A stretch of 63,897 nt of DNA, filler included, from Rozella allomycis CSF55 (lineage: Eukaryota), in the NCBI GenBank assembly GCA_000442015.1. It is 5 parts of 5 records of this genome, joined end to end, with 100 filler letters (N's around TTAATTAATTAA, not from the genome) between each part and the next. Parts side by side here need not be neighbours in the genome. Positions count along the whole stretch, not along the records: positions 16,229 to 46,492 come from KE561104.1; 4 more parts are not named here. One strand, given 5' to 3'. This document shows, one piece after another, positions 4,478 to 62,860 of this stretch. Numbering within the stretch: the stretch's first letter is position 1; each line of letters begins with the position of its first letter. Below the pieces are notes generated by a model that worked only from the letters and a program-made list of their open reading frames with translations, was not told the DNA's origin and did no database searches. Both the position numbers and the translations under genes were made by a program.

Positions 4478-4767
4478 TTCGAGGTTGGCGAAATTTCAAA
4501 ACAATCCAAAGAACTTTTACGCTGTCCAGAAAATATACTTTCGCGCATATAATTTTTTAGAAAACGATAAATGTATTTCTTTCCTCTTTGAGAAGCCGGC
4601 GAGAACGAATTTGTGATGATAATGTTACTGAACTTGAAAGAAAAATAAATCGCTTTTCCTTTTGTTAATCAAGTTAATACTCTATTATAAGTTTCCAACA
4701 TCCGATAAAGATTTGGCATCAAAACATTTTTCAATGCTTAAATGTTTACCGGGGTGTTTAAATTGCA

Positions 4768-16128: not shown

Positions 16129-16228
16129 NNNNNNNNNNNNNNNNNNNNNNNNNNNNNNNNNNNNNNNNNNNNTTAATTAATTAANNNNNNNNNNNNNNNN
16201 NNNNNNNNNNNNNNNNNNNNNNNNNNNN
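16129..16228. other. Artificial scaffold linker
   Basis: N44-TTAATTAATTAA-N44, giving stops in all six frames. Confidence 0.98.
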
Positions 16229-16782
16229 AGCTGATTTCTGGGATCCGCAGCGGTGACCAAATCTGTGGAACATTTCCATTCATCGTCGACGACAAACTTT
16301 ATACGATGAGTCCCTGGCTTTAAAACAAGAACAGTTGAAAAATCGTTTTCACTTTCGCTACGTTTCAACTCTACTTTTTCTGTCCATCGATTAAATGACC
16401 CCATAACAAACACTTTGTTGCCACCATGTTTCCAAGTTATCACAGTTGGTATCAATTCTTGTGTTCCAGTTTCCGTTTCTTCTGTATCGAGATCCATCTT
16501 TTCTTCTTCAGGAATCGGAGGAATGTCTTGCAAAATTGGAGGTACGCTTGTTGAATACACTTTATTTGCATCTTCCACAGTTAAAGAAGTCAATAAAGAT
16601 CCAACAACAGGATATGAACTTCCATACACGTTATTTATGGAATTTGATTTTGTTAATGGGATTTCTACATGTGGCGACGTCGAGAGCTGGTCATTGGTAT
16701 TATTATTCTCGATGGTAATGTCTATAGGATTATTCACCTCATGGATAGGGGAATCATTAACTCTAGATGCTTGATTTCCCAT
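16229..16782 (-). CDS. SNF1/AMPK beta subunit, 3' truncated
   Basis: Myristoylation-type start MGNQAS. Glycogen-binding domain VITWKHGGNKVFVMGSFNRW...GTHRIKFVVDDEW. Confidence 0.9.
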
Positions 16783-16873
16783 TTGTGAAATTTACAAAAT
16801 GCTTTATTTAAGATTTAGTCAATTATCATCTAATTTAGATCGAGTACGCCTTGTATTATCGTAGCATTTAATT

Positions 16874-18085
16874 TCACTGACCAATAATTCTATAAAATAA
16901 TGTCAGATTTCGAGTTTCCCTAACTAATAGATAGAAGTACAATTTTACAAAGAGATCGTTCGCGCAGTTCCATTCGATTAAGAATCCGTCGTCGCTGACA
17001 GATAGTAACTTTGGGAAAACTGAATGAAACGCAACAGCATTTACTTGCGAAATGTGTCCATTTATAGTGCTTTGAACCTCAAGTGTATTAAGTGAAACTG
17101 TTTTCACAAAATGGTGATCTGGAAAAGCCAAAACTGGATATTTGCCTGTCGAACTTGCGGAAAGACAAAAATTCATCTTGAAATTTTGATTAATAATTTT
17201 TTGGCTCTATTAGAATATATTAATCATTTTACTTTCCATTTAAATTTACCTTGAGAATCCCAAAGCTTTATTTGCCCTTCGGATGATGCACTGGCCACAA
17301 AATTTCCACCGGGAATGACACACAATGCATGGACCGGCCCTTGATGAGACTCGACAACATTTCCATCATGAAATGAATTTAAAGAATTGGATTTTCTTAT
17401 GTCCCATAATCTGATTGATCCATCTTTGCTTGCAGAATATAACTCAAAGTCGTTAACGGTGGACCAAGCAACATCTAGAATAAATGATTTATGCCCTTTT
17501 AAATTAAAATAACAGCATGATAGTTTACCCCGTAAACTGTGTACACTTGATCTATTACGAATATCGCATAAGCGAATATCATTGAATTTAGATCCTACGG
17601 CTATTATCGCTTGACTTGAATGAAACTTGTGCGAAAAAACTGGCGCTTGAATATCAAACTTTAAAATACTCTATTTTCGAACTAATGAAATCATACTTGC
17701 ATTGTATTAGTATCCCATAATTTTACAGACATATCCATGGAACAAGTTGAAAACATTCCCGTGTCCACAGGGTACCATTGACATTGGTTTATACATTTAT
17801 TGTGCATTGATTGTCTTTAAAATAATTAGTTAATTTTATACTCCATGACCGGATGTTTGGTATCGATATCAAAAATTACACAACTACCATCTTTTCCTCC
17901 ACACAAAGCACTATTTAAAAACAGTTTATCATTTACAATCGTCCTTCTATTTCTTCTATTGATAAATGACTTATCCTTGGTGCTGTCGATGATCGTTCAA
18001 ATAGGGTAGCTTGTGTGAGGTTCGCCATTATCGCATCTTCATATTTACGGCGTAATTTACGATCATTTGAGATTAGCTTAAACAT
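16874..18085 (-). CDS. ERCC8: ERCC8/CSA (Rad28)-like WD40 protein
   Basis: WYPVDTGMFSTCSMDMSVKLWDTN, IRLCDIR, HSLRGH and DGSIRLWDIR across tiny introns. 3' end approximate. Confidence 0.85.
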
Positions 18086-18158
18086 CGAATTTGATATGAA
18101 GTAGCTATTTGTAATCAAGAAAAAGTCGCAACTTGCGAATTTTTACAAATATGCGAAC

Positions 18159-19095
18159 ATGGAAAGTAACTTTCAACCTTTTCTTAAATATTTGTTCCTA
18201 GTTGTATCTGACATACATTATCATGTTAATAACTTGAGCCGCTTAAAGGAAGAGATTGAAGAATCGAATAGGTACCTTATTGTAAGGACCAGGAAATAGT
18301 GATATTAGTGCTATAATTTGTCTCGGTGACATGATTAACATACCAAATAACCCTGGGGAGACTTATAACAATGAGCAATACATAGCATTCCACCAGGAGA
18401 CACTTGATGTTATCCACTCCTTGAAATCCATCAACAGCAGACTCTATTTTATACCTGGTACGGTAAATTACTTGTGTAGACGTGTCAGGCAATCATGATT
18501 CCAGATTCCTATTCAAAGATTTAGAAGAAACTACTTTAGATACGGGGGCTACCAATATACATCGAGAAACGCATCTCCTATTACCGGGTCTAAAACTATT
18601 TGGACTTGGTGGTTCGGTTGATGCTTTTGATGACAAATCATCTAGAAATATCATTTGGCATGGTATTAATGGAAAATACGTTACAAAGGTTTTCCGTATT
18701 CTGAAAGTGGTTTGGGTACAGCGCTTTCTGACATTGATATTCCTAAACAAGAACAATTGATTTTGGTTTCCCATTGTGGCCCATCAAAATCTGGTACCAA
18801 TAATACTATATAAGAAATAGGAACGACATTGATTCAAAAAGACCCGACTAATCCTGAGGAGCCAGTAATACACTCTGGAAGCTCTGCAATATCTGAGTAT
18901 TTGCTCAGTAACGACTCTGATATATTAGTTAACTTTCATGGGCATTCACATCATAGCTGGGGCTGTTACACTTTAAAAAATAGACTCATTGTTAATCCAG
19001 GTGCCTTAAAGGATGGACGATATTTGATAATAACAATCGCATCGCAAGATGGCAAATATCATGTTAAAAACTTGCAGTTTAGCAAAATGGCATAA
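18159..19095 (+). CDS. Calcineurin-like metallophosphoesterase
   Basis: SDIH, GD, PGNHD, SH, HGHSH and NPG motifs in order, across 4 tiny introns. Confidence 0.85.
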
Positions 19096-19107
19096 CTAAA
19101 TAAATGT

Positions 19108-19397
19108 TTATTCATTCAATTCAAGAACGTATTTGTTCATGTTTTCGATTTTTGATGACAATCTCTCTTTAACTTTCAAATAGTCATTATTGTACGTTTC
19201 TTTAAGGCTTTGAATATCCAACACTATAGAATCCCAGTCCTTTTGAGATTCCGAAAGAAATTGCTGAATTTCTTTAGTCAATTCAGTTGTAGCTGAGGAG
19301 AATTCTAAGAATTAACGGAAAGTAATTTACTCAGTATCGCATCATTCATTTTTTGGTAGCTCTCGTTTTCAATTTTCGTCGAAAGAGGAGAATTCAT
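19108..19397 (-). CDS. Small (~87 aa) helical hypothetical protein
   Basis: ATG...TAA frame restored by a 26-nt GT-AG intron (19305-19330). Not in the ORF track. Confidence 0.55.
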
Positions 19398-19458
19398 GTG
19401 ACAGCCACAGCAAGGGTTAGTCATCAAGTAACTATACACTAAACAAAACACTATTTAT

Positions 19459-21022
19459 TTAATCAATTTCATCTTGAATTTCATGGCACCACATGTGATA
19501 CATTTTCTCTCCCAAATATTCTTGCATGTTGGAAAACTCTGCGTAATTGAATATTCTTTCAAAATGAGAAATATATTCCTCTGGCGGTATTTGAAGATTG
19601 AATTCTAGGGCGGTAAAAATCAAAAATTCATTTTCTTTTATTTCCTTTATGGAAATGTCAAAGGATTTTGATAAAATCTAAACAAGGAAATTTAAATTGC
19701 ATTACTTCCAGAACCCTGGCATAATTAGTTTCTTTAGGGTCATTCACCTTTACAGACAAAAGAAAACAACATGCTGCAGCAAGCCTTCGATTTGATTTCT
19801 TTACGTAGTGCTTTAAAATAAGCTTCTCGAAAAATGCGAAAGATTTGGCAACACTCGAGAATTCAATGTTCTACATTTTTTACGAGAGTCAAAGCTTACC
19901 CCTTCAATCGCCACGTTAATCAAAATTTCTTTCACCTTGCGAATTTGGCTTAAAGTCAAATTGGGGTCCAAATCGGGGTGTTTTTGTTTGAATTTTACGT
20001 TGCACTCTCTCTTAAGTTCAGAAGGTCTTGAATATGGTATTAGTGAACCCTTTTATACTAAAAACGATACAATACCATGTAGGAAGGTAGATTAATCACA
20101 GTACGATGAAATCCCGATCTTAATTCAATATCATCCAGAAATAGCGGATCATAGTGGATATCCTTGTCATCAATTGAGTTATCTAGCAAATGACCATATG
20201 AGCTGGCCTTTCTTCTTTTCAAATTATCCATTTGAATAGTCAATCTACGTGTAGTTTCTGTTAATTTATTGGAATATTGTGGCTGATGCAACTTTCCCTG
20301 TTTGCGCGCTCTTTTCCTAAACTTTTCTTTTGCTGCATTATAGACGATTAATGAACTAAATGCAAAAGNTTTTCCTTGTTTTCGCGCTCTTTTGCGAAAC
20401 TTTTCTTTTGCTGCATTATAGACGATTAATGAACTAAATGCAAAAGGAATACCCTGTTTTAACTATTGAACAATTTTATACCTCCTTAGTTGCAAAACAA
20501 ATTGCTTTGGAAGAATGCTGAGTGAGTTGTGGGACTTGTCCATTATGGCTTGTGAGAAATGTCAGCTTTCGCCGCTATTTAAATAAAAACTTAAACATAC
20601 TGCTAAAATCATATTAAATACTCCTAGATACCTGCTAATTTGTTTTCTTCTTCTAAAGACACTGTCGATCTTCGATCACTAGCACTACTAGTAGAAATAA
20701 ATTTTGAACTATCTATGGAATATTTTCTTTGTATTGTAATGTTGTCTTGAGGGTTATCAGGTCGATTGTCCGTTTCAAGAGAAGAAAGAAATTCGACTGC
20801 TTCTTTTTTCATCTCATAAGAGGTTGGAATATTTTTATTCTCAACTTCTAGTTTTGAAACTGTTCTTTGACGATTTAAAATAGGTGTTTGTGGTACTAAT
20901 TGAATATCCACGCTGATACTAATATTGTTAAGAAATTCATATGCATCTTTATATCTTTGCTTCCGTATCCCTTCAATACTATCATCCGGAGGTTCATTAT
21001 CATCACTTTCCGGAATCAACAT
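19459..21022 (-). CDS. CABLES-like cyclin-fold protein
   Basis: YDPLFLDDIEL, LTLSQIRKVK, FEKLILK, NRRLAAACCFLLSVKVND and EFLIFTALEFNL. Probable 2-nt microexon at 20601-20602. Small duplication at n 20369. Confidence 0.85.
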
Positions 21023-21281
21023 CCAGTTGTCGACCAGGGTACTTTCAGGTTTTAGCGTGAAAGCATAATTATTGAAAGTATATTAGAGTAGACAAGAAGG
21101 TTATATTATAGGAAGTCGGTAGCACGGTCAGTTAATTGATATCAAGGAAAACAGAAGCCACTTAAATTTTTATNAGTATATTGGATTAAACAAAAAGGTT
21201 AATTTGCATATTACGTAAGTCGGTACGGGTAGTACGGTCAGTTAATTGATATCAAGGAAAACAGAAGCCACTTAAATTTTT

Positions 21282-22273
<992 letters not shown>

Positions 22274-22284
22274 AATAAAAATGG

Positions 22285-23749
22285 TTAGAATTGATTAAAA
22301 TATTTATTTAATGTGCCAGCGAAATAAAAACAATCGGCAAAGGTATTATAGAAAGCGGAAGGTGCAACCCTTATCACGTTTGGCTTTCTTACATCGCAAG
22401 TTATGTTTTCAGATTTTAAAAAATCGTGGAGTTTGTCAATATCTGTCGTTTCAACAAGAAGCGAAAGTTGTGAACCGCGCTCTGAATCTTTAACAGGGGT
22501 GATTATCTTTAATGGTAATTTGTACTCTTCTATCAATAATCTTAAGAAAGATGACATTAATAAATGTTTGGTACAAATTTCTGACATTGTAGTCTTTTTG
22601 AACACTTGCATGCTGGCGTAAAGACATCCTATTGACAGAACGCAAGGATTTGACAGTTGATAACCCCCTGCTCCTATAGTGGGCCTTAATTCATTATCCA
22701 TGTTGAATCTGTGATTTTTGTCATGACCCCACCAACCACTAAGTCTCTTTAAAGGGCGATGGTCATGTTTTTGATGAACAAAGATTCCGGAAATCCCACC
22801 TGGACCGCTGTTCAAGTATTTATAACTACACCAAGCAGCAAAGTCAACATTCCATTCATGTAGGAAGAGTGATACATTGCCAACACAGTGTGCTAAATCA
22901 AAACCGGCAATGCAACCCAAAATCATTGAAAAGAAAGTTAATATTACCTTTTTATGCGCTGCATCGGTGATTTCTTTTATGTCAAACAATTGACCGGTGT
23001 AATAATTGATACCACTAAATAATATCAGAGATATCTGATCTCCATGTTTTTCGATACAATCAATGATATCTTCATGTCTTAAAACATATTCATTTGCCCG
23101 GGGTTTCAATTGTATAATACATTCTGATGGATTCAAATCATGGAATCGTATTTGAGATTCTATAGCACACTATTTAATTGTAACATATGTATTTACATAG
23201 TCAGAAGGAAACGATGGTGATTCAATCAGTATTTTATATCTTTCTTTCGTTGGATTATAAAACGAAACCATCAATAAATGGAGGTTGCATGTTAATGAAT
23301 TCATCACTGCTATCTCGCTAATGCTACAACCTATAATTTAAAAAATACGCTAATACCAAGAATGTAAGATAACTGCTCAAGACAAATGTCGCTCATTGAT
23401 ACCCATGGCCTTCCAAAATCATGGCTCAAATGTCCTTTTACTCCCCAAAATTTTTGAACTGTAAATTTTACCTCATTTTCCAAACATAAAGCTCTTCGAG
23501 TATAATCCTTTCCAAATTCTTGGGTTGTAGCCCCAATGAATTACCGCTCAAGTACACACCTATCAAGTTCCATAATTTTTTTGTACCTTGCTTACCATTA
23601 TCATTACAAGGTATATAAAATTCTTCTTTAAGATGTTTCATTGGATCCATCTTATCCAGAAAATTGGCGAAATCTGAGGACGTCAAAGCAATTCTGAACC
23701 TGACAGCATATTCATGAAGTACATCGGCAGCAACAAACTCTTTGGTCAT
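22285..23749 (-). CDS. BNA5: Kynureninase
   Basis: [45 protein letters not shown] and RGSQLS. Five introns, two apparently ending in TG. Confidence 0.95.
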
Positions 23750-23833
23750 TAAATTAAACTTTCTGCATTCATTTAATCAGATTGTATATCTCAAGGGCAA
23801 AGCTTACTTTTTACAGGTATAAGAAATTTCGGA

Positions 23834-24397
23834 ATGCAGAATTCTGGACCTTTTGCAGCTCCCATAAGCAGATTCCCCACACCTTCACAGTTGCCCAACA
23901 TCCCTCCTGTAAAACAACCGGAAGAAAATGAACTGGAAGAGTCAGATGAAGATTTGAATATGAACTCTACTCCAGATTCAATAAAGAACAAACAGATAGA
24001 ATTAAAAGAAAAAATGAAGTAAAGTTTGTCTTTTTTCTTTGAAAGGTATTTGTTGGCGAATATGGATGACGATCAAATGAAAAGATATGAAGTTTATAGA
24101 AGATCTGGATTTCCGAAAGCTGCCATAAGGAAATTCGCCCAGGGGACTTTAAATCAATCTGCTAATGAGAATACAATAGTTGTTTTGAGAGGTATAGCAA
24201 AAGTTTTTGTAGGAGAAGTTATTGAAGAAGGTAAACATTCGTAATTGAATGAATAAATAGCGAAAAATGTACAAAGTGAAGAATTAGAAACGGGCGCGTT
24301 GACACCCAGCCAAATAAGAGAAGCGTACAGAAGATTGAAAAAGAAGGGTGTAATTAACTATCATAACTCAACCGCAAGCAAAAGAATATTTTTATAA
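23834..24397 (+). CDS. TAF11: TFIID subunit TAF11
   Basis: QMKRYEVYRRSGF, GIAKVFVGEVIEEA and LTPSQIREAYRRL. Two introns. Confidence 0.92.
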
Positions 24398-24404
24398 TAA
24401 ATTT

Positions 24405-26322
24405 TTATTCATAAAAGCATAGTGGAACTACAGAGGGACGACCATGGGAGCAATGAAAAGGATCGTCGCACATTGTTAAGCATTTAAGCAGTTTTGATGC
24501 TTGTGATTCAGATATTTTAGTTCCAAATTTTATAGCCCCTATTGATTTTCTTATACTTTTTATACCTTTGCAGGACCACTCTTGAGCTATTTGAAAGAGA
24601 ATTTTCGGAATTGGGGAAAACCCACTTTCCTCAATTTCATTCAACAAAGACGATAAAAAGTCGTAACATGAACACTGGAAATCGAATTTGGTCCTCAAGC
24701 AGAAAATTCGTGGCAGAGTAAGTATTTTAATAGTATCCATCCCAATGANCATCAAATTTGGTCCTCAGGCAGAAAATTCGTGGCAGAGTAAGTATTTTAA
24801 TAGTATCCATCCCAATGAATTGTAATTGAACTCCCCATTTTAAAAATAAATGTTGGAACTCCTTTAGTTTATAGAATGATGATATCGAGAATTGCAATAA
24901 CATTTCCTCTCGCATAATCTGAATGGGGATCCCCTGCTCGGGTGAATAGAAACGTGAGGCTTCCTTTAGAATTATTAAATCGGGCGAAAAAGGTAAATAC
25001 TGATCCAAAGTGTTTTCTTTCAGATTGTGGGACTGAAAGAAAGCTTTCTTAATAACTTCTAGTCTGACTCTTTCATGGGATGCGTGCTGATCAAACGCAC
25101 ATAAAAGATCCGATTTGTGTAACTTTACTAAAATTATTTCGTTTTTAACAATGCCTATGATTTTCATATCCGCAAGCATTTGTTTTGAGAAGGCGATTGG
25201 CATGTTGCACCCCTGCAATCTTTTCTGTTTTAAAAGAAAATTGTCCTTTATCCCAATCCCTGTCCATTCCTAGTTACAAGTTTTAAAAAATTAATACGTT
25301 TTTAATTTTTTCCAGCCATGTGATATCTGATTTTGCCTTTTTACTAGTTGAATGACCAATGCATTTGTCATGAGTAGTGTCTACAAACCTTACAAGCTTT
25401 TTAATTTCAGATTCGGAGCCTAATGACTTAAATTTACAATCAATATCCTCATCTTTCTTTGGGGAAAATTCTCCCTCGATGATGGTTACAATCTTTTCTA
25501 AATCATTGTATTTTCCTAAGAGGCTCAACTCATCCTTTAACTTGTTCGCAACGAAATTGATTTTAATTCCTGGGCCATCATAATCAATCCTTATTAAATA
25601 GAAAAAATTGCTCTAGAATTGGTAACCTCATAACGTACATTTGAATTGGCGGCATTCGGTAATATTTCTAGTTTCTTTACAAGTTGGCTGAAAAAATTTC
25701 GGTAATCTTCAATTATCCTTCCATTGAAAACTTTTTTTATAGTTTGAACAAATATTACCGATAATTTTCATATCATCATTAGTTCGCGGTTTACTGGTAC
25801 AACCCCAATGAATACTGCCTTGAAACAAATAATGTTTAAAATTTTTAGACTCGATTTCGGGATTTTCAAAGAACCAATTTAACCTCTCTACTGTGTCGAA
25901 ACGCTGTTTTAAGAAATTGTTACAGTTACCGGAAGAATTTCAAACATGGTATCGCCCGCCAAATATTTTATTCTTAAATACGGATTAGCAAGGGCTGTGT
26001 ATTCCAAAAATCTAATATCTGACAGTGATTCTTTGTAAGACCTTTTCTTAATGAATAAAATCGTCGCCCTTTGATTGTCTGTTTCCTTCAAGTTAATGTA
26101 ATGTAGCAGTTTTATGTTATCATCTAAACTAGAATGAATAATGTGCCCATCTCGCAATTGGACAGTTAATATTTCGTCAGCACTGACTGTTTGGGAACCG
26201 ATTGGAGAAAGTACATCAAAATAAAGAATCAAATAATACAACTCATCTAAATGCTCAACTCTTATTTCACTTGCATTCAAGTCAAGGAAGGTGCAAATAA
26301 TTCCCTTCAGTATTTGAAACAT
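24405..26322 (-). CDS. MLH3: MutL homolog MLH3-like
   Basis: Endonuclease motifs DQHASHERVRLE, SCKGAIKFG (after a 27-nt in-frame intron) and PFHCSHGRPS. N-terminal region highly divergent. Duplication at n 24749. Confidence 0.8.
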
Positions 26323-26468
26323 TTGAAAGTCTCAGACCCTTGCAATTTTGATTTTCAATGATCCAATTAGAGACAAGTCCTTATAACAACAGTCTCATCT
26401 AGGCACGAATAAAACTAATGATATAAATTGACATATTTAGCACAAAATAGTAGTATCATTCAAGGGTT

Positions 26469-27362
26469 TTATTGATATATGATTACAACAATGGCGATCA
26501 GAGCCAGAAAATAATTCATCAAGTTTGAAAACATTATCTTCATTCCTTTATTGCTTTCCTCCGAATTATGGGCATATTTCATTTCTGACGTTAAACCGAG
26601 ACAGTCTTCCAATGATACTAATTCATATCCCTCCTTTCTTAAACGAGAAATCAAAACAGGTAGAGTAGCAATAGTTTCATTATGAATATCATGCATCAAT
26701 ATAAGGGGTGATGCCTTTCCTATATGTGTAATACGTTTTAATGTGTATTCGGTGGTGGACTGTGGGTTCTTAAACTTCCAGTCTCCAGAATCCACATTCC
26801 ATAGTATCATAAAGTAGCCAATGTCATACAATATGTCAACCACTGTGCCATTATATGAACCATACGGAAATCTGAAGAATTTGGTTTTGTATCCTACTCA
26901 TTGATTATGATAAGTATCACCTGTTATGGCTTCTATCGCCTTCTCTGTTTTATAAATGTCGCTCTTTATGTCATCAGATGGTAGGCCAACATAGTTTTGA
27001 TGAGCCCAACTATGACTCGCAATCTCGTGGCCTTCTTTCAATATTCTTGTAACTACATCCGGATATTTCACCGAATTAATACCAAGTACCATAAAAGTTG
27101 CTGTAACATTCAGATCCCTTAACGCATTCAATATCAAAGGAGTGTAAATTCTAAGACTTTAAAACTAAAATTATTACTTATGAGGGCCATCATCGAAAGT
27201 AAGAGAAGCCTTTTTATCCCCGATGCAACCAGAAAACAGGCCTCTTTGATCGGGAGGATAGGGAAGACCCTTCTCAGTTACTTTCTGGTGCTGATTAACA
27301 ATATTTGTTATAAAGTTATCTATGCAATGAGTTAATGAAAGAAACAAACAAACAAGAATCAT
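26469..27362 (-). CDS. CE4 chitin/polysaccharide deacetylase, secreted, likely GPI-anchored
   Basis: Signal peptide, TFDDGP, HSWAH, RFPYG, WNVDSGDW, LMHD and a hydrophobic C-terminal tail. Confidence 0.92.
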
Positions 27363-27438
27363 TAAACCGAAAGCCTATTCCATTGTCAATTTATGAACTT
27401 CAATCACTGTTAATCAAGCTTTTATTTTGAAATATATA

Positions 27439-27789
27439 CTATCCCTCCCTCCATTGATGACCACAAGAACAGCATTTGTAAAATATCGACATTGGTTCAT
27501 CTGCGCTTCGAATTTGAATTTGCATAAAATATGCACGACCATGCTCACATTTTGGGCAAGAAGCATCTGTTGAATCTACATTTTTCCAAGCGTCTGCACC
27601 TCCAAGAACATCATCGACTTGCTTTCTATTAAAATCTAGGCGTGTCGAAAAAGATCGTGTGATTGTGTAAATGTATGGACAAGTCTGACAATAAAATTGG
27701 TTTCTAGCAAGAGAATCCTATATTTTTTCCATTTTAAAAGGTACTGTCTTTATCAGTAAAAGGTTTGCGCAGTTTGGACAAAAAATCAT
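27439..27789 (-). CDS. RPC11: RNA polymerase III subunit C11 (RPC10)
   Basis: MIFCPNCANLL | FYCQTCPY...VDDVLGG...CPKCEH...QIRSADEPMSIFYKCCSCGHQWRE. One intron. Not in the ORF track. Confidence 0.95.
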
Positions 27790-27857
27790 CAATCAAAAAT
27801 GAACAAAAGCCACTTTCAATTTGACTTAAGCGTTTATGTATAAACTTGAATAATATT

Positions 27858-28841
27858 TTATTTTTGACGGAAAGTTCTACCCGAAGCTGTTTTCTTTTCG
27901 GCTACCACCTCTGGCTTGGCTCTGTTGAGGACCTTTAGGAAATCATTAACTTTATTTCTCATTCTTGAATGTAAGTACGCTTTAGAGCACTTAATGTGAT
28001 AATGAAGATAATCACGAAATGTTTGGATCAACTTGATGGTTTCAGTTCGCCTATTGCCTGGAGTGTAATGACGAGGAAATAACACGAAACTCACATAGCC
28101 GATGTTGTCGTCATTTCCTAGGTTTGGAACTCCTTTGAGTTCCAGAGGGGGCTCTTTGCTGTAAAGGACTTGTGGTGTGTTTTGAAGATTCAATTGTTTC
28201 CTAGCGTCTACTCATTCCTCAATCATACTTTAGAAAAGCCTTACTTGCAAAAACACTTTGCCAAGAATAACATCCGTGCTATCTTTAAAAATGGTAGAAA
28301 AAATAACAACAACACGGTCATGGAAAGATTGGATAAAGAATGCCTCGCGGTCTCGATATTCTATTACCATTAGCTCTCCTTGTTTCACGCCAGACTCTTG
28401 GTCTTTAAATGCTTTATCAAATGGGGCAGCCAAACAATTTGATTTCAAAAGTGACACTTTCTTTACGATCTGTTCAATTTCTATTCCTGAATGGGTGCCA
28501 TCGATTACCGTCGCGCGAGACATTTTTCTCAAGGTTAAAACAAAGGGAAAGATCATATCCTGTTTCAGGTTTGTCCATTATAAAGCCTTGGTATTCTTTT
28601 TGAAGGAATTCTTGGGAACCGTATTTTTCTAATTGACAAAAGCCTTTCATAGAAATAGAAACGACTAATTCTGATTTCGAATTTGGGGTTGAGACATGGT
28701 ATATAACTCCATCAAAATCGGCACAACGCAGATCGATGGACTCTTGTTTTTCACTGTTAAGATAGAAATTTCTTCTTACCTCAAAAACTTGGCGGTAAGA
28801 GTCTCTTCCAAGACCTTATTCGAATACTCCAAGAGAATCAT
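27858..28841 (-). CDS. ARPC2: Arp2/3 complex 34-kDa subunit
   Basis: [20 protein letters not shown] and [21 protein letters not shown]. Three introns. Confidence 0.96.
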
Positions 28842-28951
28842 ATTAACCCAACTCTAGTGGCTTGGTGACAATCTTCGCCAAAAATTGACAAAAAGTGAAT
28901 AAATTCATCATTGATGAACTAAAAATGTTTTTAACCTTTGTTTTGACTTGC

Positions 28952-30987
28952 ATGCTTCAAAACAAAGATTTGACAACAGTCGATTCCGGCCTTCAATTTG
29001 CTGAAGTTGTTAATGAACTTCCCAGTGAAATAAAAGAAATGGGCCATGATGAGACTGTGTGTAAATATTGCGGTATTTCTTACTTAATTCACACTGAAGT
29101 AACAAGATTGAAAAGAGAGCTTGCAAAATTAGAAAAGGTTAGAGAAGAAATGCTTGTAAAAAATGAGGTTGAAATTATCACATAGCGATTCGAATTAAAA
29201 AGCAAAGAATTTGACGACAAGATGACTTTCCAACAAGCCATTATACTTAAACAAAACCAAGAGAATTCTATGCTTCATGAAGAATTAAAGCAAATGAGCA
29301 AGGAAATAACTGACAGTCATTCTAAGTTTGAACTGATAAAGTGTAAAAACGTACTAATACCCGATAAATGCAACTACAGGAAAAATTGCGTGAAAAACCA
29401 AACAGAATATGTCAATTAATAAAAGAGAATGTAAAAACCAATAAAAGACACCTACTGGAAGTTCAAAATCTATTAATTCAGCTTCAACGACGCACGAAGG
29501 AAGGGTAATATTGGTGAAAACGTTGATTATAGATTCACCCACTTTCACGAAACCCTAAATAGGGAAATTGAGCACAAAGCAGAACAATCACAAAAATTTA
29601 AAAACATGAAAGAGAAGAACCAAAGTTTAGAAATCGAGCTGAATAATTTGCAAAAAGTCAAAAACAAATTTGAAAGTGAGTTAAATATTTTAATGTCTGA
29701 ATACACATACTCATTAAATGAGCTTAAGATTTGTAAAATGGATAATGATTCCAAGTAATAAGAAAGTCTTTTACACAAAGAAATAAACAGATTTTTGAAT
29801 TAAGAACCAATCTCAAGAATATTGAAACAGAAAGGGACAAGTTGAGGGAAGCAATCATGTTAGAATCAAATAAAAACGCAGAGAATATGAATATAATTGA
29901 AAAAACAAGAAAAAGAATCAAGGTAAACATCAGTTTCACTTGCTTCTGCAGGAATTGACGTTCGAGAAAGAAAATATTGAGTCCATAGCAAAAAATCAAA
30001 TAGAATTTATAGAAAATGAAAATAAAAGTTTAAATGAAAAGATAAATCAAGTAAACGATTGTCGAAAGGAACTTGAACTAAAGCTCGAGAGCATTCAAGA
30101 GAAGTTTGCTGATAAAGATTCTCTACTTAAATCATTTAATGAAAAAATAAAGAAAAAGACAGTAAAGTTTTTATTTTAGATTGTTAGAATGATATAGACA
30201 ATCTCAATGCAGAAAATCAAAGACTTAAAAAGGTAAACTCTGATCTCTTACAAGAAAAGTAAGAAGTATTAGTTTTCATGAGAGAGAAAATTTAATTGCT
30301 GCTCATCAGAACAGGATTTCACAGCTTCAAGATAGCTTCATACAAAAATTGAATGCCAAATGCCTAGATGAAGTGGAACAAAAAACTAATGCTATGAGAA
30401 TTACTATGCTTCAAGAAAAAGAGAATGCTTTAAGAGATCAAAGAGAATATCTGACGCGAAAATTTCAAACGGAAAAGGATCTAACAATTCAGGAGTTCGA
30501 GTCACAAAAGAAGATATTCGAAGAGAGGAATTTAATTGAGGTCCAGAATCTTCAATCCGAAATTCAAAATTTAAACAATAAGTTCATTTTCTCAGAGAAA
30601 AACTTTATTGATGAAAAGGTTCAATGTATGAATATATTTCATTTATAGGAATCGCTTAATAACAAGATAAAAACTCTGGAAGGTGAATTAGAGCGCTTTA
30701 AAATAGATTCCCGTTCAACAATANAAATGGTTTATTTATAGAAATTCCTTAACAACAAGATAAAATCTCTGGAAGGTGAATTAGAGCGCTTTAAAATAGA
30801 TTCCCGTTCCACAATAGCCTCGGAATCCAACAGTTTGCTGGTTGACCATACCATTCAAAAATTAAAACGGCAATTAACTATGAAGGAGCAGGAAATAGAG
30901 ATTTTAAAGCAAACCGTACATCGGGAATGCGAAGAGCGTGTTGAACTCATATCGAAAATTGAATATCTCCAAAGAAATAAAAAGTGA
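28952..30987 (+). CDS. LEKR1: LEKR1-like coiled-coil protein
   Basis: LPSEIKEMGHDETVCKYCGISYLI at the N-terminus and TVHRECEERVEL at the C-terminus, linked by coiled coil across about 8 tiny introns. Confidence 0.75.
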
Positions 30988-31137
30988 TTTAATGCATCTT
31001 AGATGAATTACTCTAATGCGCTATAAAACTGTTTCATTTTCGCTAAACTATATTTGACAGTCCTTAGAACGTGTAGCATGTGATCTTACATTCACTGTCC
31101 TCATTAAGGCAATAACAGGGGTTAAGAAATTGCCTTC

Positions 31138-32435
31138 ATGAAATTAATTGCGCTATTAGTTGATCTTATATTGACATCTCTTCTATTTTCATATCCAGCC
31201 GGCGACTTTGACGCCCCCGACTATTTAGATTTAGTAGAAACGAATTTAGACTTTGAGTGGTATCAAAACATATTCAACATGGGACCTACAAAGTACATAA
31301 ATGTAATTAAATCAAAAAATGTTTGTTTCGATACAAAAGCACATATGCTAGCACATGCACCCGATAAAAAGACGCAACAAAAAATTGTGTATGCCTTTGA
31401 ATCTGTGGGAAAAGGAAGGTTGCACGTGGCTAATCTTCTTTTGAAAAGAGCTGCTTATTTTCCCGAGTACAAAAATTTTGCTTATCAAATACTTAACAGC
31501 TACCGTTGCAATTTAAGAATAAGGCATCCTGAAGATTACGAAATTCAAGTGTTAATAGATTCATTAAGGGGTCAATACGCGTTTGTTTATAAAATGCAGT
31601 TGAGTAGATTACGTAAACGACATCAAGAAGACGCTGTGAGCAGGTCCTTTGAAGTGTTCTTTAAAGATTCATTAAACTGTCAACAAATAAGAAGCACTTT
31701 TTCCAAACTGCAAAAAGCTTTTCAAATCTCTGGTAGTGAAGATGTAGAGAAATATGTTTCATCAACGTTTAGGAAACATGCGACGGAGAGGAATTGCGAT
31801 GTTTCATTCAGCCCCGAAGGTGAAGATATCAAATATTTGTCCAAATTAAGCGACGAAGATATTTTACGTCAGTATCAAAATGANATTCTTTTGAAAAGAG
31901 CTGCTTATTTTCCCGAGTACAATACTTTTGCTTACCAAATTCTTAACAGCTACCGTTGCAATTTAAGGGTAAGGCATCCTGAAGATTACGAAATTCAAGT
32001 GTTAATAGATTCATTAAGGGGTGAATACGCGTTTGTTTATAAAATGCAGTTGAGTAGATTACGTAAACGACAACAAGAAGACGCTGTGAGCAGGTCCTTT
32101 GAAGTGTTCTTTAAAGATTCATTGAACTGTCAGCAAATAAGAAGAACATTTTCCAAACTGCAAAAAGCTTTTCAAATCTCTGGTAGTGAATATGTAGAGA
32201 AATATGTTTCATCAACGTTTAGGAAACATGCGACGGAGAGNAGTTTAGGAAACATGCGACGGAGAAGAATTGCGATGTTTCATTCAGCCCCGAAGTTGAC
32301 GATATCAACTATTTGTCCAAATTAAGCGACGAAGATATTTTACGTCAGTATCATAATGATAGTCAGGGCGCTGACGAGGATTTCAATGAAGTAACTGAAT
32401 TTTTCAAATTGTTGTTTATGATTTGTGACACTTAA
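31138..32435 (+). CDS. Hypothetical secreted protein (assembled as overlapping variant copies)
   Basis: Signal peptide. Near-identical repeats begin exactly at n 31884 and n 32241. Confidence 0.65.
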
Positions 32436-32467
32436 TAGATTGAAATAAATATTTATTGCATATAATG

Positions 32468-33779
32468 TTAGGAAAGTAATGAACGAGGTCCTTGAGAAAA
32501 TATATAGCCCTGGAATAAATCCTTCCAGTGTTGAGTTTCATCGACCGTTTCGAGATGAGCGTTTGCCGCGATCCTATTATTTGAAGTTTCGTTTATGATA
32601 AAATTCAACCTTCTTATGACTTCATTTAGTGTTTCCCTGAGGAACACCTTGTAGTTAACAATTGGATTTAGCTTGATTTCTAGGATTCTCACCTTTATTT
32701 GATAGCATTGAAGCTGTACATAGTACTGAAAGTTTTCAAATATCATTTGATAGACACCATTTCTTTCTAGAAAATTTTCATGTTCCTTTCTTATCTCTTC
32801 GATCTGTATATAGAATATAGAGTCCATGTAATCACCATAGTCATTTATTAAGCTTTGAAAGTCTCTGTCGCTTAATTNCTTCATGTTCCTTTCTTATCTC
32901 CTCGATCTGCATATAGAATATAGAGTCCATATAATCACCATAATCATTTATTAAGCTTTGAAAGTCTCTGTCGCTTAATTTCTCGTTTGGAAATTGATCG
33001 ATGGCCCAGGTTAGGTGTTTTATCAATCCAACAGCCTTAGAACAAAGGCTTTCAAAAAACTCAATTATTTTGTTGTCTACAAACAATTGTTGATCTACGT
33101 TGGTAACAAAGCCCGCAATGAACATATATAATGAGTAAATTAAGGTTTCAGTGGTGGAATGCAGAGCTTCCTTTTTTTCTTCGATGAAATTATTAAAATC
33201 TACAAGAATCATATGCTTCGTTAATTCACTCAGACCATTTATATCCTTCAAACCCTTTTTTACTCTTTCAAATATATCCGATGATTCATAGTTTAAAGAA
33301 TCGCTAAAATCTAATGTAACAGATCCATTCTCCTCAATGAATTTGCTTAGTTTCAGTTTTTTCAGATTAACGTGGTCTACTATGTCCTTGAAGAAATTTT
33401 GAAATCTTCCAATAAGAACACGTCTTAATTCTTCATTTATTTTAATGTCTAAAAGGTACTCGTCTTTAAAAGATAGTAAATCGATTAGAAACATTAACTG
33501 TTGATGGCAAGCAACGTGAAATGCCACCATCTCAGTAGCGACAATTTTCGGAACTACAGTGCGCCCATTATTGAGAGGCAACAATAGCGAAACTGATATG
33601 GCCAAATAATCGTTAGCCATGTCTTTCATTACGTAATATTCTCTGTTGCTAGGATCAGATCTTGGAATACGAGATTTCAAGCTATTGAGCACTTCTACAT
33701 ATTCGGAGAACGGCCATGTAACAGCGCTGAGAGTGTAGCCAGCCAAGGAGACGAAAATTATAAAGATCTTCATATACAT
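32468..33779 (-). CDS. Secreted hypothetical protein, family member 1
   Basis: Signal peptide MKIFIIFVSLAGYTLSA. Ends YIFSQGPRSLLS. Small duplication at n 32878. Confidence 0.75.
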
Positions 33780-33980
33780 GATGTTTCTACTACCCTGGCC
33801 TGAAGTGCGGTACATAAACATATGCCACATTTCAGATGACAGTTTTTGTCAGGTTCCGAATTATGGATTTCGATCATCAAGAACATCTAAATTCAAATTT
33901 AAATTTGTCATATTATTATTTTTTTTTTAATAAGTTAAAATAATTTATTTAATTATTGATTAATCCAAAGTATCTAGAAT

Positions 33981-35276
33981 TTAGTTGTTTATTTTTCGAT
34001 TCATTACTTCGCTAAGAGTTGTTTGAAAGGTAATGACAGTATATCCTGAAATTCCTGATCGTGGGCCCTGAGAAAATATATAATGCTCATAAAGCAAATA
34101 CCAGTAGTAGTCTTCATTTACCCATTCACTGGTATATAAATGATCTTCTAGTCTCGACTCCGCGTCTGAAAGTCTAGAGATTAATGCTTCTATCTTAGTT
34201 TTAAATAATTTAAAGGTTTCATAAAGCCCTTCTCTTGAGTGTATAACAGGATTAGCATGTGACAAGTCTAGGCTTAATTTAGCTCCATAACAACTTATCA
34301 TATTGAATGCTACCAAATTTTCCAGCGCTATTGTTTCAAATATTGGCAAATTGTTGGCAACATGAAGTCCGACAACATATCCATCACAGTTTGGAATCAA
34401 AACTAAATTCATGTATTCATCATATTTTTGCCTTAAAATTTTATAACTATCTTTATATTTGTTTTTAGGTATCTCAATTAATGATTTCATAAAGTAATCC
34501 ATCGACTTCATTACGTTGCCGCTAATTACTTTTTGGGCGTCAAGCATTATCTTATTGAACTTTGAATTATTGTTGGCTACAATTAATGTCGCTTTAACTA
34601 TTTGAGCCCTGATAGAATTGATCAATATTTCGTTTTGCTTTTCAAATTTCTTCTTTTGATTGTCTATAAAGTTTTGGCAGATCTTGAACACTTGAAGTCT
34701 CAAATGTGGTGCTATTTTGAGTTGTAATAGCTCTTTTTTCATCTTGTCATATAATATAAGGTTTTCAAATAAAATCCCTTCTGTAGCGTTGAAAGCAATC
34801 ATTCCCCGCGCCTCAATGAAATCGGCCAACTTGGCTTCTTCCGCCTTTAAAAAATTATGACCTTCTTCGAAAACATTTTTTAGTGCTTCTTCGACTATCT
34901 GCTTAGTCTCCTTGGGAGCTTTTAAGTGTGTTTCTAAATGAGTTTGTAATTCCACAGTGGTAACTGTAAGCGCGATCTGCTGATGGTAGGAAATATAATA
35001 TCCCAAGAGCTCATTTCTTATGCTGGAGTCCAAAACCGCTTTTGCATTACTTCTTGGTAACAACGATGCACTAGAAAGAACGAGGTAGTCATCCGCATAT
35101 TGCATTAACAAATGATATCTATTGGTTTCTACTTTAGGTATCTTTTCTTTTATGGCCATTAAAGCCTTTTCATACACAAAAAAGTGTTTTGGCCAATCTA
35201 TTTCAACCTCTTCTGCATGTAAAAATGGGATACCTAGTAAAACAATAATAAAGACGAATAATCTTAAACTAAACAT
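33981..35276 (-). CDS. Secreted hypothetical protein, family member 2
   Basis: Signal peptide, 431 aa, intronless. Shares A(D/N)DYL..S..LLP, HQQ and YIFSQGPRS with its neighbour. Confidence 0.8.
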   Translation of the reverse strand: MFSLRLFVFIIVLLGIPFLHAEEVEIDWPKHFFVYEKALMAIKEKIPKVETNRYHLLMQYADDYLVLSSASLLPRSNAKAVLDSSIRNELLGYYISYHQQIALTVTTVELQTHLETHLKAPKETKQIVEEALKNVFEEGHNFLKAEEAKLADFIEARGMIAFNATEGILFENLILYDKMKKELLQLKIAPHLRLQVFKICQNFIDNQKKKFEKQNEILINSIRAQIVKATLIVANNNSKFNKIMLDAQKVISGNVMKSMDYFMKSLIEIPKNKYKDSYKILRQKYDEYMNLVLIPNCDGYVVGLHVANNLPIFETIALENLVAFNMISCYGAKLSLDLSHANPVIHSREGLYETFKLFKTKIEALISRLSDAESRLEDHLYTSEWVNEDYYWYLLYEHYIFSQGPRSGISGYTVITFQTTLSEVMNRKINN

Positions 35277-35384
35277 TTAAAGAAGGGGGTGTATCCTCGT
35301 GTTTGAGTATGGCTTTGACATTAATCTGATGGATGTGCCAGATGTCATTCGAGTTAACAACAGGTCATAGTCAAAACTAATTTA

Positions 35385-46492: not shown

Positions 46493-46592
46493 NNNNNNNN
46501 NNNNNNNNNNNNNNNNNNNNNNNNNNNNNNNNNNNNTTAATTAATTAANNNNNNNNNNNNNNNNNNNNNNNNNNNNNNNNNNNNNNNNNNNN
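46493..46592. other. Artificial scaffold linker
   Basis: N44-TTAATTAATTAA-N44. Confidence 0.98.
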
Positions 46593-53726: not shown

Positions 53727-55614
53727 TGGAACCCAAATTGAATCATGTCGCATTGGGTTTTTGCCGCAAGTCCTAATAAAGAGAATGCCTGACATTGATG
53801 GAAGAATAGGTGTCGTGACCAACGTACGGGATAAAAGTTCTAACCCGTTTATAAGACAGCAAGCCTATTCAAAATTTGGGATCGCCGAAATAAATTTAAT
53901 AAATTAATTTTTTAAAAAAATAGTAATGTATAAAAATTATTTATTATCGTTCTTACAAATGATTTTTGAAATTTCAGAAATTTGCCAACATTCGATCCAA
54001 TTCGTCCTCATCAAAAGGCTCTTCATTTTGAGCATCCCCCACTATTTCTTCATCACCATTAAATAAATTAACCATTGTTTGTGTCTCCACATTCGTTAAA
54101 CAATACCCTGGCTTGGCAAATGAATTCAAGATCGTAGATTTAGATATTGATAACCACACTTGCTGAAGCCAATTGCAAACTAAAATTCTGTCTGGCTTTA
54201 CTAACGCCATTGGGCGGTTTTCTTCTTTAGCTTTCTTGTATTCTTCGACTGCCCATAAGGTCCACATCTCAGACAATTTTGCCTTTAAGGGTCCATTTAC
54301 TCCTACATCCAAAGGTTGTAGAAAAGATGTGCAATTAGCAGGTAAAATCTCTTTCTGAAGATTTTCTGTTTCTTCACACATTTGATTAAACTTTTCGTTT
54401 TCTTTATGCGGCTTGAAACCATCTAGCAATAAAATGAAAAATTTTGTTGGATTGGCATTTACGTAGGGCAAAATAACCATTTATATTAAAACAAAAACAC
54501 ATTACCTTTTTGTACCATGATTCCACAATGTCTCCGTCAAACCATCCTTTTGCTTGGGTATCGAAAAAAACATCTTGTGGGTAACCAAAGTCTTTTGCAT
54601 TTCGAATCTCATATGCCACCGTATTTGAACCAACTCTATCATTTTCCAAATATCTACGTGCGTTAAAAACACAATACAAAGGCAATTTATCACCATTGTT
54701 GCAAATGGTGCACATTGCTGTCATGCGGTTTTTCATGGATCCCAGCGTTAATGCTCTAGGGTTTTTTTCTCCGCATTTTTCCATAGTATATTTTGGCACA
54801 TTTTCGTAAAAAATTGCTGTTTGATCACTTTCTGAAATTTACAAAATGTGCTTACGCGTTTATAATGACAATATTTTCACTTCTAACACCATTCAGCAGC
54901 TCCAAGTCACTGAGTAAATTATTAAAATAAATTATGTAATTCTGCTTATATTCTTGAGCGTCGACTTGTAAGTTTGGTCTAACGTGACCTGTCACTCTAC
55001 GTCTCACAAAATTGTTTTTTTCAAGTAAACGCCTTAATCTTGACCGAATACATTCGAAGGATTTATCCCTGAATTGCTCCGGGAATTCGCTTCTAACAAT
55101 GTTCACTAAATTTGTCACACCAATAGGAATTAATGAAGATCGTAGCTCTTCAACTACGGCCAGAATCCTGGTGTTCACCTCTTCCGGTAAGCTTGATTTT
55201 CCTCCAGCGTGCAAAGTCTTTTTCACGCGCTTTTTGTCCGATTTTAATAATTCATTTTCAAGTTCTACCCACCTCTTAACGTTCCTTAGGGGTACACTTG
55301 ATAGCAATGTTTTGTCTTCATCACTCCTTAAATGTTGTTCTTTTTTAAAAATATTTATAATTTTTAATTTTTCGTTAAAAGAATAATGTTTTCGGCACTT
55401 TTTTTGAGAAGCCAGCATGTTATTTTTTTACACCGAAATTTGCGAATTTGCATTGTAAATAACTTTTAAAAATATTCTGTAAATTTATTTTTATTTATTT
55501 TCGCGTTTTGGAAGGAGGCAGGGAAAAGTCGTATGCTGCCGTCCAAGCCAACAACCCCTGTAAAACCCTGGTGTTTTGGTACAAAGCCACTGGCTTCCGC
55601 CCTGACCAATACGG
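53727..55614 (-). mobile_element. pogo-like (Tc1/mariner superfamily) DNA transposon; transposase 53974-55418
   Basis: N-terminal HTH plus CENP-B-like HTH. Catalytic NADQT, LLDGF and LQPLDVG. 5' terminus CCGTATTGGTC at 55614 abuts TA. Two tiny introns. Confidence 0.88.
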
Positions 55615-55617
55615 TAA

Positions 55618-55717
55618 NNNNNNNNNNNNNNNNNNNNNNNNNNNNNNNNNNNNNNNNNNNNTTAATTAATTAANNNNNNNNNNNNNNNNNNNNNNNNNNN
55701 NNNNNNNNNNNNNNNNN
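55618..55717. other. Artificial scaffold linker
   Basis: N44-TTAATTAATTAA-N44. Confidence 0.98.
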
Positions 55718-62760: not shown

Positions 62761-62860
62761 NNNNNNNNNNNNNNNNNNNNNNNNNNNNNNNNNNNNNNNN
62801 NNNNTTAATTAATTAANNNNNNNNNNNNNNNNNNNNNNNNNNNNNNNNNNNNNNNNNNNN
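62761..62860. other. Artificial scaffold linker
   Basis: N44-TTAATTAATTAA-N44. Confidence 0.98.

What the first reader, a model, noticed from the sequence alone, without database searches (positions are those of the whole stretch)
22918..23471. Two apparent GT...TG (non-AG) tiny introns in kynureninase
Seen on the - strand: (a) 23446-23471, GTAAAATTTACAGTTCAAAAATTTTG|G, 26 nt. Removing it gives WKMR-GVKGH. Unspliced it hits a stop, and the two nearest AGs are out of frame. The only in-frame AG needs a 47-nt intron, longer than any other I traced here, and deletes the conserved G-V-x-G-H. (b) 22918-22947, GTAATATTAACTTTCTTTTCAATGATTTTG|G, 30 nt. Removing it gives [14 protein letters not shown] as in other kynureninases; otherwise a hydrophobic [10 protein letters not shown] is inserted just before the PLP-binding DLAH. 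Both end ATTTTG|GG and have the typical intron length. Established: TG acceptors are very rare in spliceosomal introns. Inference: this spliceosome may choose the 3' site largely by distance from the 5' site and tolerate TG|G.
Basis: partly seen in the sequence, partly recalled or inferred. Interest (0 to 1): 0.8.

Follow-up and report, generated by a model that had tools for sequence, protein, structure and literature searches.

The report
Tiny introns ending TG in Rozella
Two 26-30-base segments in the kynureninase gene of the fungal parasite Rozella allomycis, and a third in a nearby gene, look like normal tiny introns except that they end in TG instead of AG, and the public gene models mishandle all three.

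Summary
The window is Rozella allomycis CSF55. On the minus strand, 23471-23446 (26 nt) and 22947-22918 (30 nt) start GTAA, are 80-81% A+T and end TTTTG|G. Removing them gives a kynureninase that aligns without gaps to 10 of 10 homologues examined and to human KYNU. Both public gene models instead use a 47-nt GT-AG intron, which deletes the conserved GVKGHL, and read through the 30-nt segment, which adds 10 residues.

I found a third case: 54505-54478 (28 nt, GT..TG|G) in a DDE_1 transposase-like gene, supported by continuous Pfam profile coordinates. An independent single-cell assembly keeps the frame through segment (b), which argues against a dropped A there.

All 51 canonical introns I curated in the window are 26-30 nt long, and 21 of them skip an earlier AG. 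This fits 3' site choice by distance.

No transcript data could be obtained, so splicing at TG is inferred, not shown. TG acceptors are already known in human genes and in short AT-rich Micromonas introns, so this would be a new member of a known kind. My confidence is about 0.6.

The parts
22285..23749 (-). Kynureninase gene (ATG 23749-23747, stop 22287-22285); public models EPZ32857.1 and RKP18023.1
23446..23471 (-). Segment (a): 26-nt putative intron, GTAAAA...TTTTG|G, phase 2. Removing it joins WKMR to GVKGH.
22918..22947 (-). Segment (b): 30-nt putative intron, GTAATA...TTTTG|G, phase 0. Removing it joins AHKK to [10 protein letters not shown].
   Evidence: frame kept in the independent assembly
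23425..23471 (-). 47-nt GT-AG intron used by both public models. It skips two nearer AGs and deletes GVKGHL.
23560..23595 (-). 36-nt GT-AG intron 1. It is in frame and has no stop; both public models remove it.
23331..23356 (-). Canonical 26-nt GT-AG intron 3
23170..23196 (-). Canonical 27-nt GT-AG intron 4
53974..55418 (-). DDE_1 transposase-like gene (public model O9G_005419 = P0122)
54478..54505 (-). Third putative GT..TG|G intron, 28 nt, phase 0. Removing it joins WYKK to VILPYVN...LLLDG.
54828..54855 (-). Canonical 28-nt GT-AG intron of the same gene. It skips an AG at position 24. The public model uses a 49-nt intron (54880-54832) instead.

Best explanation
These are real spliceosomal introns of Rozella allomycis. 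They are ultra-short (26, 30 and 28 nt) and AT-rich, have an ordinary GTAA 5' end, and their 3' end is TG|G rather than AG.

Proposed mechanism (inferred):
- In this organism the 3' splice site is set mainly by a minimum distance of 26 nt from the 5' site.
- Within a few bases beyond that limit, the catalytic centre takes the first usable site. That is normally AG, but UG followed by G is accepted when no in-window AG is present.
- The terminal G, which contacts the 5' G in the second step according to established spliceosome structures (recalled), is kept. Only position -2 is relaxed.

Shown here: the sequences, their intron-like features, the gap-free homology after removal, the length rule among canonical introns, and frame conservation of (b) in a second assembly.

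Inferred: that the RNA is actually cut at TG.

Consequence: the public gene models for kynureninase and for the DDE_1 gene are wrong at these sites.
For: (1): the model spliced at TG aligns without a gap at both junctions to 10 of 10 homologues examined (10 of the 120 listed). All 10 have [GA]V.[GS]H after the conserved W, and none has an insertion before GC/GA..G[FW]DLAH.

(2): human KYNU shows a gap of exactly 10 residues at (b).

(3): DDE_1 profile positions 3-65 end at the donor in one frame, and positions 73-177 resume 9 residues after the TG in the other frame.

(4): the three segments are 26, 30 and 28 nt with A+T of 0.81, 0.80 and 0.82. The 51 curated canonical introns are all 26-30 nt with A+T of 0.756 +/- 0.061. 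The donor 6-mers GTAAAA and GTAATA are each seen 5 times among the canonical introns.

(5): 21 of 51 canonical introns skip an AG ending at position 15-24, so distance matters.

(6): the first AG at or beyond 26 nt lies at position 31, 55 and 83 respectively, and is out of frame in all three.

(7): RKP18023.1 comes from an independent single-cell SPAdes assembly. It reads through (b) in the same frame and has an M-to-L change inside it, so that assembly has no extra A there.

(8): intact TAG|G acceptors are common in the window, including one in the same gene at 23331. This argues against a systematic loss of A in this context.

(9) The 1,320-nt coding sequence is otherwise intact.
Against: There is no transcript evidence of any kind.

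For (a) and (c), no second assembly tests the acceptor base. The RKP model at (a) uses the outer 47-nt borders and says nothing about the inside.

In (a), an out-of-frame AG lies 5 nt beyond the TG and could be the site actually used.

TG is not always used. In 2 of the 51 canonical introns a TG at position 25 or 26 is passed over for an AG at position 29. Intron 1 of the gene also has a TG at position 32 that is passed over if the 36-nt model is right.

(b) is in frame and has no stop, so retention would still give a protein.

The genome shows a triploid pattern with heterozygous SNPs, so other alleles may differ.

The intron set was curated by me from frames alone.
Confidence: 0.6

Rival explanations
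1. Assembly or sequencing error. The true introns end TAG, and one A was lost in the assembled sequence at each acceptor, so the introns would be canonical 27-, 31- and 29-nt GT-AG introns.
For: Inserting one A before the final G restores a canonical acceptor with the same mRNA at all three sites (reasoned). The assembly is a rough draft, with single-N joins that have near-duplicate flanks at 3225 and 24749 and linker-filled gaps.
Against: The independent single-cell assembly gives a protein that runs through (b) in the same frame, which would be impossible with an extra base. Many TAG|G acceptors are intact in the window, including one in the same gene. I saw no stray frameshifts inside the long conserved exons I examined, other than at N joins. 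Three errors at the same intron position in about 84 nt of intron would be a remarkable coincidence.
Confidence: 0.1
2. The public gene models are right. The cell uses only AG acceptors: a 47-nt intron at (a), retention of (b) as 10 extra residues, and a 94-nt intron at (c).
For: Two annotation pipelines produced these models. All of their borders are GT-AG and in frame. (b) has no stop.
Against: These models delete the conserved GVKGHL (10 of 10 homologues keep the motif). They also delete the LLLD strand of the DDE_1 domain, which is covered by profile positions 73 onward. They require skipping two nearer AGs at (a) and one at (c), whereas all 51 curated introns use the first AG at or beyond 26 nt. 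Their lengths of 47 and 94 nt lie outside the 26-30 nt class. The gene models are predictions; I saw no transcript support for them.
Confidence: 0.1
3. Decaying genes. These were once canonical introns whose acceptor lost its A in the genome. They are no longer spliced correctly, and kynureninase and the transposase-like gene are young pseudogenes, or only this allele is defective.
For: Rozella is an obligate parasite with reduced metabolism (recalled). The DDE_1 gene is transposon-derived. The genome shows a triploid pattern, so a defective allele could be masked.
Against: Apart from these sites, the kynureninase reading frame is intact over 1,320 nt and keeps the conserved SYKYLN and FDLAH motifs. 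Two independent hits of the same kind in one otherwise perfect gene, plus a third in another gene, are not what random decay would produce. Both assemblies carry the TG form of (b).
Confidence: 0.1
4. Removal or bypass without the spliceosome, such as IRE1-type cleavage of a 26-nt intron (as in XBP1) or ribosomal hopping over a coding gap.
For: (a) is 26 nt, the same length as the XBP1 intron (recalled). In (a) a stop codon directly follows the last sense codon, as in phage T4 gene 60 (recalled).
Against: The borders carry GTAA 5' ends like the 51 canonical introns. They do not carry the paired stem-loop CNGNNG sites of IRE1 substrates (recalled). (b) and (c) have no stop at the take-off point. 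The codons flanking (a) do not match each other.
Confidence: 0.02

Closest known systems
TG 3' splice sites of U2-type introns in human genes (Szafranski et al. 2007, PMC2374985; abstract and section 12 read)
   Same: GT at the 5' end and TG at the 3' end. A purine is preferred at +1; here it is G in 3 of 3. In (a) and (b) an AG lies within 28 nt downstream (5 and 25 nt), matching the human TG-AG tandem limit.
   Different: In human genes TG is only ever an alternative to a nearby AG and is never the sole site. Here TG would be the only productive site, and in (c) the next AG is 55 nt away. The human introns are of ordinary length; these are 26-30 nt.
Short AT-rich 'BOC1' introns and IE-B/IE-D introner elements of Micromonas (PMC3879977; passages read)
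   Same: Short, low-GC introns without a clear branch-point motif. 34 of them have TG or CG acceptors, and most of those are validated by ESTs. GT-TG borders are also reported for the introner families.
   Different: A green alga rather than a fungal relative. The Micromonas introns are confined to a low-GC chromosome region, and no strict length floor is reported in the passages I read. The Rozella cases have no transcript support yet.
Ultra-short intron systems: myxobolid myxozoans and Dicyema (PMC13644364, whole main text read); ciliates such as Stentor (cited there)
   Same: Median intron length in the 20s of bases. Splice signals are reduced to GTA...AG. Length is tightly constrained.
   Different: This window is from neither lineage.
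U12-type (minor spliceosome) introns
   Same: They tolerate non-AG 3' ends.
   Different: The 5' ends here are GTAAAA, GTAATA and GTAATG, not the extended U12 5' consensus (recalled). The length and composition match the organism's major-class introns.

Membership tests
Spliceosomal (U2-type) intron of this organism | 5' end GT, here GTA with A preferred at position 4 | tested here: met
   All three start GTAA. Among the 51 canonical introns, position 4 is A in 32.
Spliceosomal (U2-type) intron of this organism | 3' end AG | tested here: not met
   All three end TG followed by G. No in-frame AG lies within the 26-30 nt class.
Spliceosomal (U2-type) intron of this organism | Length and composition of the species' introns | tested here: met
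   26, 30 and 28 nt with A+T of 0.80-0.82, against 26-30 nt and 0.756 +/- 0.061 in the 51 curated introns.
Spliceosomal (U2-type) intron of this organism | Removal restores a continuous, homologous reading frame | tested here: met
   (10 of 10 homologues).
Spliceosomal (U2-type) intron of this organism | Recognisable branch point | tested here: inconclusive
   I found no shared motif by eye in either the canonical or the TG introns. (b) has TTAAC at positions 7-11.
Spliceosomal (U2-type) intron of this organism | Absent from mature mRNA | not testable with these tools
   No RNA holder was listed. The one run laid did not cover the gene.
Human-type TG-AG tandem acceptor | An AG acceptor within 28 nt of the TG, with both sites used | tested here: inconclusive
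   The next AG lies 5 nt (a), 25 nt (b) and 55 nt (c) downstream. Use of either site is unknown.
U12-type intron | Extended conserved 5' splice-site and branch-point motifs | tested here: not met
   The 5' ends GTAAAA, GTAATA and GTAATG do not resemble the U12 consensus as I recall it.
Kynureninase (PLP-dependent, aminotransferase class V fold) | Pfam KYNU_C and Aminotran_5 domains, and alignment to solved kynureninases | tested here: met
   (KYNU_C 1.5e-16). (human KYNU 1.5e-77, covering residues 171-454 of chain 3e9k_A).

The most novel reading that the evidence does not exclude
The Rozella allomycis spliceosome measures a fixed minimum of 26 nt from the 5' splice site and then accepts UG|G as a constitutive, sole 3' splice site in roughly one intron in twenty. 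Under this reading, recognition of the AG dinucleotide is not obligatory in this lineage, which is sister to the nearly intron-free microsporidia. Current gene models, which allow only AG, would then be systematically wrong at such sites across the genome.
Probability: 0.45. Interest if true: 0.7.

Novelty: new member of a known kind. Interest (0 to 1): 0.55.

Why it matters
If transcripts confirm it, Rozella would be a fungal-lineage organism in which TG serves as the only productive acceptor of a noticeable share of introns (3 of 54 in this window). It would also choose its 3' sites by a sharp 26-nt length rule. That would give a simple natural system for asking how the second step of splicing picks its site when the AG signal is relaxed, in a lineage next to microsporidia with their reduced spliceosomes.

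There is also a practical consequence. Both public annotations of this genome delete catalytic-region residues or add spurious ones at these sites, for example the conserved GVKGH stretch of kynureninase and the LLLD strand of the DDE_1 domain. Metabolic and comparative inferences drawn from those protein sets may therefore be affected.

Tried and rejected
RNA evidence:
- No RNA holder was listed for 22300-23800.
- The single run offered (X1, a metatranscriptome kept as contigs) laid only three short partial pieces on 16229-36228 and none on the gene.

Whole genome: none is held, so I could make no genome-wide count and could not look for U2AF35, Slu7, Prp18 or Prp8.

Organism:
- My first guess was a ciliate, a dicyemid or a myxozoan, based on the 26-nt introns.
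- I dropped it when one search gave a rounded 100% match to Rozella allomycis proteins.
- One search then showed that EPZ32857.1 carries the window's residues at the two positions where RKP18023.1 differs.

Other TG candidates I rejected:
- 49943 and 50281 are coding sequence of degenerate retrotransposon protease copies.
- 44721 is resolved by a canonical 26-nt GTTGTA..AAAAG intron.
- 27744 is a canonical 27-nt intron.
- 38720, 29774, 31503, 41714, 26665 and 54786 lie antisense to longer reading frames.
- 33777 (a CG end) is probably a start region.
- 10177 is probably coding.

Methods that did not help:
- Loose ORF-bridging counts by 3' dinucleotide are not informative in this AT-rich DNA.
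- Exon 3 alone (29 aa) found nothing in the PDB.
- Earlier findings of this scan: none.

Literature:
- The searches found no paper describing non-AG acceptors in Rozella.
- The original genome paper is not held.

Full report
**What is there.** On the minus strand the window carries a kynureninase gene from 23749 (ATG) to 22285 (stop).
- Its large 3' part matches Pfam KYNU_C and Aminotran_5.
- It aligns to human kynureninase at E = 1.5e-77.
- (a) 23471-23446 is 26 nt, begins GTAAAA and ends TTTTG before GGG.
- (b) 22947-22918 is 30 nt, begins GTAATA and ends TTTTG before GGT.
- At (a) the upstream frame stops immediately (AGG TAA). The conserved GVKGH is encoded in another frame, and only a deletion of 26 nt (or 26 plus a multiple of 3) connects the two.
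- The AGs ending at positions 13, 31 and 37 are out of frame. The AG at position 47 is in frame but removes GVKGHL.
- At (b) the first AG at or beyond 26 nt is at position 55 and is out of frame.

**Whose DNA it is.** My first guess, from the 26-nt introns, was a ciliate, dicyemid or myxozoan. That was wrong.
- The exons match kynureninase of Rozella allomycis CSF55 at a rounded 100%.
- Two public proteins exist. EPZ32857.1 (P0121) has the window's residues at the two sites where the proteins differ. RKP18023.1 (P0001) differs by N-to-D and M-to-L.
- Passages of Ahrendt et al. 2018 (PMC6784888) say that the second data set is a SPAdes co-assembly of single-cell libraries of the same strain, annotated by the JGI pipeline. 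They also say the organism shows a triploid pattern with heterozygous SNPs.
- That RKP accessions belong to that assembly is my recollection. It fits the 5.6-kb contig listed.

**How the public models treat the sites.** Both proteins read ...WKMS|HDFG..., which is the 47-nt GT-AG intron at (a). Both read straight through (b) as VILTFFS[M/L]IL.
- I aligned a model spliced at the two TG sites with 10 homologues: 5 named fungal, 3 named bacterial and 2 unnamed. These were 10 of the 120 listed.
- The TG model has no gap at either junction.
- All 10 homologues carry [GA]V.[GS]H three residues after the conserved W.
- None of them has residues where (b) sits.
- The public models show a 6-residue deletion and a 10-residue insertion at these places.
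- Human KYNU shows the same 10-residue gap.

**A third case.** I scanned the window for GTA-initiated, AT-rich segments that end TG|G and bridge long open frames. This gave one further convincing site: 54505-54478, 28 nt, GTAATG...AAATG|G, in a DDE_1 transposase-like gene.
- Pfam DDE_1 profile positions 3-65 end exactly at the donor in one frame.
- Positions 73-177 resume nine residues after the TG in the other frame.
- Removing the 28 nt therefore gives WYKK|VILPYVN...FFILLLDGFKPH with continuous profile coverage.
- The public model (P0122) joins WYKK|PHKENEK through a 94-nt GT-AG intron and loses the LLLD strand (length from the ruler).
- All other candidates were rejected as coding sequence, antisense artefacts or canonical introns.

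**The canonical introns of the window.** One search listed 79 GTA...AG donors that bridge frames of at least 35 open codons. Of these, 52 are 26-30 nt long.
- From these and, I curated 51 introns with clear coding-strand context and a length of 25-31 nt.
- I dropped rows that were antisense to longer frames, inside Pfam-covered exons, alternative donors of the same junction, or longer than 31 nt.
- All 51 are 26-30 nt: 20 are 26, 11 are 27, 12 are 28, 5 are 29 and 3 are 30. None is 25.
- Their A+T is 0.756 +/- 0.061.
- 21 of the 51 contain an AG ending at position 15-24 that is passed over.
- Within this set, then, the acceptor is always the first AG at or beyond 26 nt.
- Nine shorter candidates (20-25 nt) appear. 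Seven of them have a 26-28-nt alternative for the same junction, lie antisense, or lie within an exon. Two (28621, 29733) are unresolved or have a 26-nt alternative next to them.
- The three TG segments fall inside this class in length (26, 30, 28 nt), composition (0.81, 0.80, 0.82) and donor sequence.
- Only 7 of 9,940 exon windows of 28 nt start with GTA and reach A+T of 0.80. The coincidence of three homology-defined breaks with such windows is therefore not chance.

**Is it an assembly error?** Adding one A before the last G would make all three canonical without changing the mRNA, so this is the main artefact to consider.
- Against it, the independent assembly yields a protein that runs through (b) in frame and continues [10 protein letters not shown], which an extra base would prevent.
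- Intact TAG|G acceptors are frequent, including one in the same gene.
- The frame breaks I saw inside long exons are at single-N contig joins with near-duplicate flanks, not stray indels.
- For (a) and (c) there is no second assembly to consult, and I could not look at raw reads.

**Mechanism.** The best-supported reading is ordinary U2-type splicing with two local peculiarities.
- The first is a hard lower limit of 26 nt. This is shown for AG introns by frames.
- The second is tolerance of U at position -2 of the 3' site when followed by G. This is inferred.
- TG is not taken indiscriminately. In 2 of the 51 canonical introns a TG at position 25 or 26, followed by A or T, precedes an AG at position 29, which the frame requires.
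- The three used TGs are all followed by G.
- In (a) an out-of-frame AG lies 5 nt further on and may compete, which would make part of the transcripts unproductive.

**Comparison with what is known.** TG acceptors are documented in two systems.
- In 36 human genes they occur only as alternatives within 28 nt of an AG, and never as the sole site (PMC2374985; abstract and section 12).
- In Micromonas, 34 short AT-rich introns have TG or CG acceptors, mostly validated by ESTs, and two introner families have GT-TG borders (PMC3879977; passages).
- The Rozella cases resemble the Micromonas ones most closely.
- Ultra-short introns with reduced signals are described for myxobolids and Dicyema with AG ends (PMC13644364; main text; supplements closed).
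- One paper notes two putative ~30-nt introns in the R. allomycis S23 gene that lack conserved motifs (PMC6349667; passage).
- My searches found no paper describing non-AG acceptors or a 26-nt rule in Rozella. The genome paper itself is not held.

**Verdict.** The rivals are a dropped A in the assembly, the AG-only public models, and young pseudogenes, at about 0.1 each. A few RT-PCRs or one RNA-seq library would settle it.

Noticed in passing
window-wide; curated list: The canonical introns show a sharp lower length limit. All 51 curated GTA..AG introns are 26-30 nt (20 are exactly 26), and 21 of them skip an AG ending at position 15-24. The acceptor appears to be the first AG at or beyond 26 nt.
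   Followed up: partly
54828-54880 (-): At the first intron of the DDE_1 gene, the public model uses a 49-nt GT-AG intron (54880-54832) that ends at the AG the 28-nt intron skips. The 28-nt intron (54855-54828) keeps ...IVIINADQT..., which resembles the first catalytic-Asp motif of pogo-type transposases (motif recalled).
   Followed up: partly
3225, 24749 (single N); also 1516, 32878: Single-N positions are contig joins where tens of bases are repeated, with a few mismatches, on both sides. This breaks the reading frames of a P-type ATPase gene (651-4495, minus strand) and a MutL-C-like gene (24408-25269, minus strand). They are probably unmerged heterozygous overlaps.
   Followed up: partly
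16129-16228, 46493-46592, 55618-55717, 62761-62860: Four gaps have the same artificial structure: 44 N, then TTAATTAATTAA (a stop in all six frames), then 44 N. This is a linker used to string contigs together.
   Followed up: yes
about 48000-51000 (-): Tandem, frame-broken copies of a retrotransposon aspartic-protease-like sequence (...SRNYPIFLGMSLLS...). They produced false TG-intron candidates.
   Followed up: partly
27718-27744 (-): A 27-nt GT-AG intron with an in-frame stop splits an RPB9/TFIIS-like zinc-ribbon reading frame (CPNCANLL ... YCQTCPY). The family name comes from recall and was not tested.
   Followed up: no
22924-22947 (-): Segment (b) also contains a TG at position 24 that is in frame. 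It would leave two extra residues (IL). It is shorter than any curated intron, so I treat the 30-nt form as the likely one.
   Followed up: no
40503-43451 (-): A 982-codon open frame lies in the lowest-GC part of the window (0.27-0.33), with strong strand skew. I did not send it to any family search.
   Followed up: no
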